32,224 nucleotides of DNA, from the UHGV virus genome UHGV-0122054. The stretch is one strand, 5' to 3'. This document shows, piece after piece, positions 11,680-12,190 of this stretch (position 1 is the stretch's first letter; each line of letters starts with the position of its first letter). The stretch is from a virus. The notes under the pieces were generated by a model, which had not been told where the DNA came from, searched no databases, and worked only from the letters and a program-made list of their open reading frames with translations. The position numbers and the translations under genes were made by a program.

Positions 11680-11742
11680 GGCAGTAAGCTATGGGAGGCT
11701 GCCTTGATTGATTTTAGCAAACTGATTAGGGAGTTGCGACTC

Positions 11743-11838
11743 ATGATTAGTCAATTACCAAACTGGAAATTTTTGCTGGTCTGGAGCATCCCTTTTTTAT
11801 GGGTAGTATCCCAGTTAATTGTGGCAATTAAGGGGTAG
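11743..11838 (+). CDS. Small single-TM peptide (31 aa, MISQLPNWKFLLVWSIPFLWVVSQLIVAIKG)
   Basis: ATG with AGGGAG about 9 nt upstream; strongly hydrophobic; below track cutoff (seen as the tail of track ORF 11626..11838). Confidence 0.3.
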   Translation: MISQLPNWKFLLVWSIPFLWVVSQLIVAIKG

Positions 11839-11840
11839 CT

Positions 11841-11972
11841 ATGTCAGACAAACTCATAACGCCGGCAAAGGTCCTGTGTGTGATTGTCGGTATTTCATTT
11901 TCACTAATGCTGGTTGCTCTTTTTCTGTCCCTCGCCTGGGTGATGTTGTCTTCGTCGGGGCTGCTGGGGTGA
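11841..11972 (+). CDS. Small single-TM peptide (43 aa, MSDKLITPAKVLCVIVGISFSLMLVALFLSLAWVMLSSSGLLG)
   Basis: ATG 2 nt after the previous stop; SD AAGGGG 6 nt upstream. Confidence 0.35.
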   Translation: MSDKLITPAKVLCVIVGISFSLMLVALFLSLAWVMLSSSGLLG

Positions 11973-11974
11973 CA

Positions 11975-12091
11975 GTGACTGATGACATCAGCAGAGCGCT
12001 GGCTTTTGCTATTAAGTGGGTGGCTGTTGGTATTGCTGTGTCTCCGATGCTGTATGGGCTGGCAAAACTGGTCATTGCGCTGAAATCGTGA
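11975..12091 (+). CDS. Small hydrophobic peptide (about 38 aa; GTG start assumed), paralogue of the next peptide
   Basis: C-terminal part of track ORF 11819..12091; ISRALAFAIKWVAVGIAV aligns with [18 protein letters not shown] of the next ORF, with several synonymous codon differences. Confidence 0.3.
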   Translation: MTDDISRALAFAIKWVAVGIAVSPMLYGLAKLVIALKS

Positions 12092-12102
12092 ACTTTAAAA
12101 AG

Positions 12103-12189
12103 ATGAGTGCTGAACTTATTCGGGCAATGGCATTTGCCATTCGTATTGTGGCCATTGCTGTTCTGGTCTGGGCAATCCGTTGGTGGTGA
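12103..12189 (+). CDS. Small hydrophobic peptide (28 aa, [28 protein letters not shown])
   Basis: ATG start; stop 1 nt before the Rz ATG; paralogous to the preceding peptide. Confidence 0.3.
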
Positions 12190-12190
12190 T

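What the first reader, a model, noticed from the sequence alone, without database searches (positions are those of the whole stretch)
11680..12190. Cluster of four tiny single-helix membrane-peptide ORFs between endolysin and Rz/Rz1, two of them paralogous
In canonical S-R-Rz cassettes the endolysin and spanin genes are adjacent. Here a strong terminator follows the endolysin and about 500 bp then encode four consecutive short hydrophobic ORFs (31, 43, about 38 and 28 aa). The last two align at protein level with multiple synonymous codon differences (aga/cgg Arg, gcg/gca Ala, gct/gcc Ala), which argues for selection on the peptide rather than chance. Small membrane peptides in a lysis operon could be antiholin-like lysis regulators, type I toxin-like peptides or superinfection-exclusion factors.
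Basis: partly seen in the sequence, partly recalled or inferred. Interest (0 to 1): 0.7.

Follow-up and report, generated by a model that had tools for sequence, protein, structure and literature searches.

The report
Small membrane-peptide genes before the spanin
Between the cell-wall enzyme gene and the spanin gene of this E. coli prophage lie four real, conserved but uncharacterised genes for tiny single-helix membrane proteins, which phages swap as cassettes; this is a useful annotation fix and a testable lead, not a new kind of system.

Summary
After the SAR endolysin (11015-11548) comes a conserved bidirectional terminator (11639-11671). Four tightly packed short hydrophobic ORFs then run straight into Rz (12191).

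All four are best read as genes:
- In-frame pN/pS is 0.17-0.6, against about 1 or more in the other sense frames.
- BLAST mosaic breakpoints fall on the ORF boundaries.
- Each ORF matches an unknown-function PHROG family.

- ORF1 starts at TTG 11704 behind a GGGAGG ribosome-binding site, giving 44 aa rather than 31.
- ORF3 and ORF4 are confirmed homologues, linked by natural hybrid proteins. Both are N-terminally short forms of a family whose long forms reach 48-60 aa.

The three families occur almost only in prophages of Escherichia, Shigella and Salmonella. They sit between the endolysin and the i-spanin whatever the holin, endolysin or spanin type, in varying number and order, sometimes beside an antirepressor gene. 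A few relatives lie among tail genes. The full four-gene array is in 587 of 5,426 complete E. coli genomes.

No match to Pfam, NCBIfam, PADLOC, PDB or Rfam was found, and no paper. My best guess, at low confidence, is late-expressed inner-membrane peptides that modulate lysis. A moron-like role in the lysogen is nearly as likely. A type I toxin arrangement is not supported.

The parts
10107..10322 (+). P21-type class II holin (pinholin-like), 71 aa; start of the lysis cassette
   Evidence: Pfam PF04971 Phage_holin_2_1, E 9e-33. PGAP annotates it as a class II holin in the identical locus.
11015..11548 (+). Endolysin (lysozyme, rrrQ-like, hydrophobic N-terminus of the SAR type), 177 aa
   Evidence: PF00959, E 9e-24. 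phrog_7 endolysin, E 7e-61. PGAP annotates it as rrrQ lysozyme.
11639..11680 (.). Bidirectional intrinsic terminator (stem-loop 11639-11671 with T tracts on both strands), separating R from the small ORFs
   Evidence: The terminator scan finds 15 pairs, 6 of them G-C. The hairpin is conserved in 10 related loci from E. coli, E. fergusonii and Salmonella, with 2 pairs changed on both sides. It is absent where an antirepressor gene occupies the slot.
11704..11838 (+). ORF1, revised: 44-aa single-pass membrane peptide, TTG start, GGGAGG ribosome-binding site at 11693-11698.
   Evidence: phrog_6632, E 6e-5. Forty-five protein clusters; homologues start with ATG or GTG at the same codon and keep the N-terminus (F/I/V)DFSKLIRE(L/I)R. 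pN/pS is 0.22-0.28 in frame and at least 1 in the other frames.
11841..11972 (+). ORF2: 43-aa membrane peptide. Its ribosome-binding site AAGGGG (11830-11835) lies inside the last codons of ORF1.
   Evidence: phrog_4906, E 4.5e-21. 186 protein clusters, nearly all Escherichia with one Shigella name. PGAP CDS WP_001280935. The BLAST module q162-293 equals this ORF exactly. pN/pS is 0.38 for codons 2-30 and 0.78 for codons 31-43.
11975..12091 (+). ORF3: 38-aa membrane helix, GTG start 2 nt after the ORF2 stop. It is the conserved core of a family whose long forms are 48-60 aa.
   Evidence: phrog_1115, E 3e-24. 212 protein clusters in Escherichia and Salmonella. pN/pS is 0.17, with variable sites 12/4/27 by codon position. 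The AlphaFold2 model is a single helix, pLDDT 95. The BLAST module q296-413 equals this ORF.
12103..12189 (+). ORF4: 28-aa membrane peptide, a short paralogue of ORF3. Its last codons and stop (TGG TGG TGA) form the ribosome-binding site of Rz, whose ATG follows 1 nt later.
   Evidence: phrog_4493, E 3.8e-6, shared with ORF3. pN/pS is 0.45. The junction CCGTTGGTGGTGATATG is shared with unrelated small ORFs upstream of spanin genes.
12191..12685 (+). Rz i-spanin, with the embedded Rz1 o-spanin at 12411-12596
   Evidence: PF03245, E 4e-51. phrog_13, E 1e-77. The Rz1 [23 protein letters not shown]... is listed.

Best explanation
The segment 11704-12189 carries four real genes from three families. 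ORF1 and ORF2 each represent one family, and ORF3 and ORF4 are paralogues of a third. Each encodes a 28-44-aa protein made of one membrane-spanning helix.

They have no promoter of their own that I could find. They lie inside the Q-dependent late operon: the Q antiterminator gene is at 4380-5201, and the holin and endolysin genes are upstream. The most likely expression route is therefore late RNA polymerase reading through the terminator at 11639-11671. Translation would then pass along the chain: the ribosome-binding site of ORF2 lies in the end of ORF1, ORF3 starts 2 nt after the ORF2 stop, and the last ORF4 codons plus its stop form the Rz ribosome-binding site. Rz synthesis would be coupled to that chain.

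The genes behave as exchangeable cassettes. They occupy the endolysin/i-spanin junction of lambdoid and related prophages of Escherichia and Salmonella in varying number and order.

What is shown: the genes are real, each is a single helix, and they are modular. Confidence about 0.85.

What is inferred: late co-expression, about 0.6. Function, only about 0.3-0.35: the peptides insert into the inner membrane late in infection and adjust the lysis programme through helix-helix contacts with the pinholin, the SAR anchor of the endolysin or the Rz transmembrane domain. This would make them accessory timing or efficiency factors, not essential lysis proteins.
For: Coding:
- pN/pS in the sense frame is 0.17 (ORF3), 0.22-0.28 (ORF1), 0.38 (ORF2 codons 2-30) and 0.45 (ORF4). 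The other sense frames give about 0.9 or more.
- Start codons vary among ATG, GTG and TTG at a fixed ORF1 position.
- Each ORF matches a PHROG family, and PGAP annotates three of them as CDSs.

Modularity:
- BLAST segments begin and end at ORF boundaries.
- The order ORF3-ORF2-Rz occurs in L087, L088 and L095, and ant-ORF1-ORF2 in L002 and L090.

Link to the junction:
- The families sit directly before the i-spanin next to different lysis partners. These are P21-type holin with lysozyme (window), holin_2_3 with lysozyme (Salmonella), holin_8 with a GH19 endolysin and a DUF2514-type spanin (E. fergusonii), and an M15 peptidase.
- The same holds in the viable phages SPN3UB and PhiR5_1.

No independent transcription signals:
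- No + strand sigma-70 consensus site in 9800-13400.
- No terminator between ORF4 and Rz.

Precedent for accessory membrane proteins tuning lysis: the Mu releasin gp25 (PMC9239132) and BSPM4 ORF52 (PMC11657625).
Against: - No experiment or expression data bear on these ORFs.
- The slot also holds an antirepressor gene (ant), which is not a lysis gene. Position alone is therefore weak evidence of function.
- Relatives occur outside lysis cassettes. ORF3-like P0115 lies between tail genes I and J, or at a prophage end flanked by terminators, in S. salamae. An ORF1-like gene sits among baseplate genes of an Actinobacillus phage.
- The families show no fidelity to any one holin, endolysin or spanin type, which argues against a specific partner.
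- K-12 Qin and DLP12 and phage lambda lyse without them (the lambda point is established knowledge).
- Some copies are truncated: ORF1 has a stop in L086 and ORF2 a stop in L092.
- ORF3 here has lost the family's usual N-terminal 10-22 residues and depends on a GTG start. ORF4 has only a weak ribosome-binding site.
Confidence: 0.4

Rival explanations
1. Moron or lysogenic-conversion genes. The peptides are autonomous accessory genes whose benefit is to the lysogen, for example blocking DNA entry of superinfecting phages or altering envelope physiology. The R/Rz junction would simply be a permissive insertion site.
For: - The same slot carries the antirepressor moron.
- Family members occur in tail and baseplate regions.
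- In L107 the ORF3-like gene, with its upstream terminator and leader, is bracketed by terminators like a self-contained unit.
- Known phage morons such as lambda bor and lom and HK97 gp15 are membrane proteins beside late genes (established knowledge).
Against: - No sigma-70 consensus promoter lies upstream on the + strand.
- In the lysis-cassette loci there is no downstream terminator before Rz.
- Spacing and coupling into Rz are tight.
- No PADLOC defence model matches.
Confidence: 0.3
2. Translation relays and recombination scars. What matters is that something is translated up to the Rz start, restoring the coupling lost when DNA was inserted between R and Rz. The peptides themselves would have little or no function and persist by hitch-hiking.
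For: - The ORF4-type and ORF1b-type C-termini (I/V)RWW* are encoded by the Rz ribosome-binding site, and this junction recurs behind unrelated ORFs.
- The ORF2 tail is nearly neutral, pN/pS 0.78.
- Truncated and frameshifted variants exist.
- ORF3 and ORF4 here lack the family's N-terminal segment.
Against: - pN/pS of 0.17-0.28 for ORF3 and ORF1 across Escherichia and Salmonella shows selection on the peptide sequence.
- Family members are retained where no spanin follows.
- Several loci have a normal ribosome-binding site for Rz 10-13 nt after the small ORF, without overlap.
Confidence: 0.12
3. Type I toxin-like peptides controlled by an antisense RNA.
For: - The peptides are small and hydrophobic.
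- A weak minus-strand promoter-like site at 11847-11818 (9 of 12 matches) could give an RNA of about 180 nt antisense to ORF1, ending at the bidirectional terminator.
Against: - That site is within chance expectation: 2 found against 3.9 expected. Its -10 hexamer is not kept in the ant-type variant, which reads ATTACT where the window reads ATTGTG.
- No Rfam family reaches significance at E up to 1; the only two matches are far below their gathering scores.
- Four tandem coupled ORFs inside an operon is not a type I architecture.
- The window has a genuine sok antisense-RNA (hok/sok-type) locus elsewhere, at 2551-2726.
Confidence: 0.05
4. Not protein-coding on the + strand. The ORFs would be chance ORFs, or the real gene would be the 123-aa minus-strand ORF 11854-12225.
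For: A stop-free minus-strand stretch of 135 codons. It is reached in only 1.6% of 5,000 synonymous resamplings.
Against: - Resampling gives a mean of 105 codons, so most of that length follows from the hydrophobic sense codons.
- In that minus frame pN/pS is 1.33 (ORF2 region), 0.34 (ORF3) and 0.83 (ORF4). This is always worse than the sense frame, and the frame contains stops in other variants.
- The minus ORF is not conserved as a unit where the modules are reordered.
- PGAP does not call it.
Confidence: 0.03

Closest known systems
PHROG families phrog_6632, phrog_4906 and phrog_1115/3246/4493 (unknown function), with RefSeq hypothetical proteins WP_001280935, WP_042004856 and WP_032140280
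   Same: These are the same proteins or their direct relatives.
   Different: No function is assigned to any of them. ORF1 is usually left unannotated, as in the identical E. coli locus and in Salmonella phage SPN3UB. ORF3 is annotated with inconsistent starts, giving 38, 48, 51, 60 or 71 aa.
Accessory membrane regulators of phage lysis: lambda S107 and the phage 21 S21-71 antiholins, T4 RI, P1 LydB, the Mu releasin gp25 (PMC9239132) and BSPM4 ORF52 (PMC11657625)
   Same: Small phage membrane proteins, encoded in or near lysis cassettes, that tune holin triggering or SAR-endolysin release. This window has a P21-type holin and an endolysin with a SAR-type hydrophobic N-terminus.
   Different: There is no sequence relationship: no Pfam hit and no DUF2730. 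The peptides are much shorter at 28-44 aa. They are not tied to one holin or endolysin type, and no functional data exist.
Lambdoid morons such as lambda bor and lom, HK97 gp15, and the antirepressor gene of Stx phages at the R/Rz junction
   Same: Optional, mosaic cargo inserted at gene boundaries of the late region. It is often membrane-associated, is exchanged between phages, and can occupy the same slot as ant.
   Different: Classical morons carry their own promoter and a downstream terminator. Here the terminator lies upstream, no promoter was detected, and the genes run directly into Rz.
Type I toxins (Hok, Ldr, Ibs, TisB)
   Same: Small hydrophobic single-helix peptides.
   Different: There is no antisense RNA family, no own promoter or structured leader, and the tandem ORFs are coupled within an operon.

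Membership tests
Antiholin or holin-modulator class (functional class, no single sequence family) | Membrane protein that binds the holin and shifts triggering time | not testable with these tools
   This needs lysis-curve genetics or interaction assays. Only the single transmembrane helix is shown.
Antiholin or holin-modulator class | Consistent genetic linkage to one holin family | tested here: not met
   The families occur with Phage_holin_2_1, holin_2_3, holin_8 and the holin that accompanies an M15 endolysin.
Releasin (Mu gp25, DUF2730) | Sequence membership in DUF2730: an N-terminal transmembrane helix plus a cytoplasmic domain | tested here: not met
   None of the four peptides hits any Pfam family at E up to 1. 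At 28-44 aa they have no room for a soluble domain.
Moron (Hendrix/Juhala definition) | Optional presence between conserved neighbouring genes in related phages | tested here: met
   Absent in K-12 Qin and DLP12, where R and Rz overlap. Present in variable sets elsewhere.
Moron (Hendrix/Juhala definition) | Own promoter upstream and own terminator downstream, allowing expression from the repressed prophage | tested here: inconclusive
   No + strand sigma-70 consensus site in the window or in L088, and no terminator before Rz. However, the consensus scan is crude, and the L107 copy is flanked by terminators.
Type I toxin-antitoxin | Cis- or trans-encoded antisense RNA with its own promoter | tested here: not met
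   No significant Rfam match in 11500-12300; the two matches listed at E up to 1 lie far below their gathering scores. The only antisense promoter-like site is at chance level and is not conserved.
Type I toxin-antitoxin | Toxicity of the peptide on overexpression | not testable with these tools
   This needs an expression experiment.
Known anti-phage defence proteins (PADLOC) | Match to a defence-system model | tested here: not met
   No PADLOC family matched at E up to 1 for the 44-aa ORF1, ORF2, the long ORF3 form or the long ORF4 form.
ORF3/ORF4 family (phrog_4493/1115/3246) | Shared AFAI(K/R) helix core recognised by the same profiles, with intermediates between the two forms | tested here: met
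   ORF3 scores E 1.5e-16 and ORF4 E 3.8e-6 on phrog_4493. The hybrids are P0102, P0114, P0116, P0120 and P0287.

The most novel reading that the evidence does not exclude
The endolysin/spanin junction of enterobacterial temperate phages would hold a shufflable array of single-helix micro-proteins forming a previously unrecognised class of lysis modulators. They might gate spanin or pinholin function through transmembrane helix contacts, and phages would tune lysis timing by swapping cassettes.
Probability: 0.2. Interest if true: 0.65.

Novelty: new member of a known kind. Interest (0 to 1): 0.35.

Why it matters
- Distribution. The full four-gene array is in about 11% of complete E. coli genomes (587 of 5,426). 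At least one module is in about 36-38% (1,944-2,066 genomes). The 100%-identical hits include ST131/O25b:H4 strains and strain E2348/69, and O157:H7 genomes carry related modules. All copies are labelled hypothetical or missed altogether.
- Annotation. A correct gene model (ORF1 start and length, ORF3 and ORF4 as one family) improves annotation of many prophages and of published phages such as SPN3UB.
- Biology. The lysis cassette is among the best understood phage modules. Conserved extra membrane proteins inside it are cheap to test by deletion and lysis curves, and could reveal new regulators of pinholin, SAR-endolysin or spanin action.
- If they prove to be conversion or exclusion factors instead, they add to the list of very small prophage-encoded membrane effectors.

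Tried and rejected
1. Known families. Pfam, NCBIfam, PADLOC, PDB sequence and Rfam searches gave nothing meaningful for any peptide or for the RNA.
2. Exhaustive profile search. The ORF3/ORF4 profile against 1.84 billion representative proteins gave only 27 clusters, all the same small-peptide family. There is no remote link to a characterised protein.
3. Species-representative genomes. The scan with the ORF3/ORF4 alignment confirmed no hit. The family is accessory and absent from reference strains.
4. Literature. Searches on small proteins in lysis cassettes, genes between R and Rz, EHEC ribosome profiling and the RefSeq accessions found no paper on these ORFs. The Sakai small-gene paper's supplements contain none of the four peptide motifs.
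5. Antisense 123-aa ORF. Rejected on pN/pS and on synonymous resampling.
6. Own promoter. None was found by the consensus scan. The scan is weak evidence, so the question is left open.
7. Partner specificity. I compared Rz N-terminal variants with the upstream ORF type by eye and saw no consistent pairing.
8. Structure. The model is a single featureless helix, so I did not run a fold search.
I worked around both with alignments and longer family members.
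Full report
**Context**

The window is a lambdoid prophage of E. coli. The stretch 11550-12200 is 100% identical to many complete genomes, including ST131/O25b:H4 strains and strain E2348/69. The late region contains, in order:

- a Q antiterminator gene (4380-5201)
- a DNA methylase gene
- three tRNA genes and two STnc100 sRNA copies
- a SASA (sialate O-acetyl) esterase gene (8100-9956)
- a P21-type holin gene (10107-10322)
- a YdfR/DUF1327 gene (10327-10671)
- a convergent 90-aa gene (10637-10909, minus strand)
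- the endolysin gene (11015-11548)
- the region in question
- Rz/Rz1 (12191-12685 and 12411-12596)
- a small overlapping ORF, an HNH endonuclease gene and the terminase genes

**The observation**

- The terminator is a 15-pair hairpin (11639-11671) with T tracts on both strands.
- Ten related loci from E. coli, E. fergusonii and Salmonella keep the hairpin. Of the 14 predicted pairs, 2 are changed on both sides.
- In K-12 Qin and DLP12 the R and Rz genes overlap by 4 nt. The 642-nt interval here is extra DNA relative to that layout.

**Are the ORFs genes?**

Four lines of evidence say yes.

1. Family membership. Each ORF hits an unknown-function PHROG family:

| ORF | PHROG family | E-value |
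|---|---|---|
| ORF1 | phrog_6632 | 6e-5 |
| ORF2 | phrog_4906 | 4.5e-21 |
| ORF3 | phrog_1115 | 3e-24 |
| ORF4 | phrog_4493 | 3.8e-6 |

   PGAP annotates ORF2, ORF3 and ORF4 as hypothetical proteins in identical genomes.

2. Substitution pattern. I pooled Nei-Gojobori counts over the distinct DNA variants I could collect:

| ORF | pN/pS in sense frame | Note |
|---|---|---|
| ORF3 | 0.17 | variable sites 12/4/27 by codon position |
| ORF1 | 0.22-0.28 | three separate segments |
| ORF2, codons 2-30 | 0.38 | |
| ORF2, codons 31-43 | 0.78 | nearly neutral |
| ORF4 | 0.45 | |

   The two other sense frames give about 0.9 or more in every case. The sample is small, 4-12 distinct sequences per family. 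The sequences are related, so these are indications rather than formal tests.

3. Mosaic structure. In a distant BLAST against 5,426 E. coli genomes, partial matches start and stop at ORF boundaries. Query 162-293 is ORF2 exactly. Query 296-413 is ORF3, and 1-293 is ORF1 plus ORF2. Other prophages reorder the modules:
   - ORF3-like, then ORF2-like, then Rz in L087, L088 and L095
   - ant, ORF1, ORF2, then Rz in L090
   - ant and then all four ORFs in phage PhiR5_1
   - ant and then an ORF2-like gene in Stx phages

4. Translation signals. The spacing between ORFs and their ribosome-binding sites fits an operon of coupled genes:
   - GGGAGG lies 5 nt before the revised ORF1 start.
   - AAGGGG, inside the last ORF1 codons, lies 5 nt before the ORF2 ATG.
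   - GGGG lies 5 nt before the ORF3 GTG, which sits 2 nt after the ORF2 stop.
   - ORF4 starts 11 nt after the ORF3 stop, behind only a weak ribosome-binding site.
   - The last two ORF4 codons plus its stop (TGG TGG TGA) form the Rz ribosome-binding site, 1 nt before the Rz ATG.

**Corrections to the gene models**

*ORF1.* Homologues from E. coli, E. fergusonii, E. albertii, Salmonella and phages carry a conserved N-terminal extension, M/V-(F/I/V)-DFSKLIRE(L/I)R(L/V)M. Its start is ATG or GTG at the codon where the window has TTG 11704. The differences in that extension between the window and L116/L117 are synonymous (CTG/CTA, ATT/ATA, AGG/CGG, CTC/CTA). ORF1 is therefore 11704-11838, 44 aa: a 22-residue N-terminal segment with net positive charge, one transmembrane helix, and a two-residue tail.

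*ORF1 C-terminal variants.* The family has two alternative C-terminal halves, ...IPFLWVVSQLIVAIKG and ...GYFIGQIRWW. The second is used when the gene directly precedes the spanin gene.

*ORF3 and ORF4.* They are homologous. Both hit the same three PHROG profiles. Natural proteins combine the N-terminus of one type with the C-terminus of the other: P0102, P0114, P0116, P0120 and P0287. Longer family members are 48-60 aa. They carry a basic N-terminus (M-x-KYKRILLRLT), then MKNGLE-x-x-AP, then the helix containing AFAI(K/R). In the window both copies begin at the equivalent of residue 11 of the 48-aa form:
- ORF3 starts at that form's own GTG codon, fused to the end of ORF2.
- ORF4 belongs to a recurrent short subtype with its own ATG (MSAEL/MSADF/MNAEL).

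AlphaFold2 with an 18-sequence alignment models ORF3 as one continuous helix, residues 2-37, pLDDT 95.

**Distribution**

| Family | Protein clusters | Where |
|---|---|---|
| ORF3/ORF4 | 212 (90% identity) | Escherichia and Salmonella |
| ORF2 | 186 | almost all Escherichia; one cluster also carries a Shigella name |
| ORF1 | 45 | Escherichia, Salmonella and one Cronobacter fragment; one Actinobacillus phage was found separately |

An exhaustive profile search of 1.84 billion representative proteins found only 27 clusters for ORF3/ORF4. The full array is in 587 of 5,426 complete E. coli genomes. Some part of it is in about 1,950-2,070 genomes, often in several prophages per genome.

**Position**

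The small genes lie between the endolysin and the i-spanin in very different cassettes:

- P21-type holin with a SAR lysozyme (window)
- holin_2_3 with a lysozyme in Salmonella
- holin_8 with a GH19 endolysin and a DUF2514-type spanin in E. fergusonii
- an M15 peptidase endolysin

The same slot can hold further unrelated single-helix ORFs: two in L089 and one in L113. It can also hold an antirepressor gene.

The short sequence CCGTTGGTGGTGATATG reads R-W-W-stop followed by the spanin ATG. It is shared by ORF4-type genes, ORF1b-type genes and another small ORF. It may serve as a patch of homology for cassette exchange.

There are exceptions to the position. An ORF3 relative lies between tail genes I and J in S. 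salamae, or at a prophage end bracketed by terminators. An ORF1b relative lies among baseplate genes of an Actinobacillus phage.

**Mechanism**

Shown:
- The genes are real.
- Each encodes one hydrophobic helix.
- They are modular.
- They lie inside the late operon with no detectable promoter or downstream terminator of their own.

Inferred:
- They are transcribed by Q-modified polymerase reading through the terminator.
- They are translated as a coupled chain that ends in Rz initiation.

Function cannot be decided with the evidence available here. I rank accessory modulation of lysis first, at about 0.3-0.35. The reasons are the recurrent position across unrelated cassettes, the operon coupling, and experimental precedent for accessory membrane proteins that tune holins or SAR endolysins (PMC9239132, PMC11657625).

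A moron-like role in the lysogen is nearly as likely, at about 0.3. The reasons are that ant shares the slot, relatives occur in tail regions, and there is no fidelity to a particular holin, endolysin or spanin type.

A pure translation-relay or scar reading is contradicted for ORF1 and ORF3 by peptide-level selection. It remains possible for ORF4 and for the ORF2 tail.

A type I toxin arrangement and a non-coding or antisense-gene reading are poorly supported.

**Comparison and novelty**

The peptides match no Pfam, NCBIfam, PADLOC or PDB entry. I found no paper that mentions them. They are already in databases as hypothetical proteins.

What is new here:
- the corrected gene models
- the demonstration that ORF3 and ORF4 are one family
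- the picture of a cassette array at the endolysin/spanin junction

I file this as a new member of a known kind: small uncharacterised phage membrane proteins, moron-like cargo in the late region. Interest is moderate. The experiments are cheap and a lysis-regulatory role would be noteworthy, but small hypothetical membrane ORFs in phage genomes are common.

Noticed in passing
window 2551-2726 (+): Rfam hit to the sok antitoxin RNA (120 bits, E 4e-27). This indicates a hok/sok-type type I toxin-antitoxin locus in the early region of the prophage.
   Followed up: no
window 6875-7124 and 7200-7877 (+): Three tRNA genes (Met-CAT, Arg-TCG, Arg-TCT) are followed by two tandem copies of the STnc100 sRNA (136 and 165 bits) and then a SASA esterase gene (8100-9956). 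I did not look for stx genes in this window.
   Followed up: partly
window 10637-10909 (-): A 90-aa minus-strand ORF (phrog_2411, E 9e-59; annotated by PGAP) lies between ydfR and the endolysin gene. It converges on ydfR and overlaps its 3' end by 35 nt. It is a second insertion inside the lysis cassette, of unknown function.
   Followed up: partly
window 12682-12906 (+): A 74-aa ORF overlaps the Rz stop codon (ATGA). It matches only positions 100-172 of the 291-position profile phrog_2571, so it may be a truncated remnant of a longer gene. PGAP annotates a 71-aa hypothetical protein here.
   Followed up: no
window 11854-12225 (-): A 123-aa antisense ORF spans ORF2 to ORF4 and the Rz start. 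Its stop-free length is mostly explained by the hydrophobic sense codons (resampling mean 105 codons, observed 135, reached in 1.6% of trials). Its pN/pS is worse than that of the sense frames.
   Followed up: yes
window 11847-11818 (-), with the terminator at 11671-11639: A weak minus-strand promoter-like site (CTGACA, 18 nt, CACAAT, with TG upstream) could give an RNA of about 180 nt antisense to ORF1, ending at the bidirectional terminator. It is within chance expectation, and its -10 hexamer is not conserved in the ant-type variant.
   Followed up: partly
L089 1314-1466 and 1631-1780; L113 about 1755-1907: The same endolysin/spanin slot in other prophages holds further, unrelated single-helix ORFs. 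Examples are MHVKDNNKTF...AIAYVCR (50 aa), MIKAETTSQG...TTIYLNR (49 aa) and MKESSNKTNL...WVKWW (50 aa). The slot is a general sink for tiny membrane-protein genes.
   Followed up: partly
L118 (Salmonella phage SPN3UB, NC_019545) about 1801-1935: An ORF1-family gene (...VIDISKLIRELRLMIEQLPNWKFILIWLV...GQIRW...) sits unannotated in the roughly 400-nt gap between the lysozyme and Rz genes of this published phage.
   Followed up: partly
L107-L109 (S. enterica subsp. salamae) and L119 1795-1932 (Actinobacillus phage vB_Apl-pPE4): Relatives of ORF3 and ORF1 occur outside lysis cassettes. One lies between tail genes I and J, or at a prophage end together with the same type of upstream terminator. The other lies among baseplate genes. 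The small genes therefore move as independent units.
   Followed up: partly
window 29825-29856 (+): Another hairpin of the same general form (AAAACCCCGGTATCTGCTGATACCGGGGTTTC) lies in the tail-gene region.
   Followed up: no
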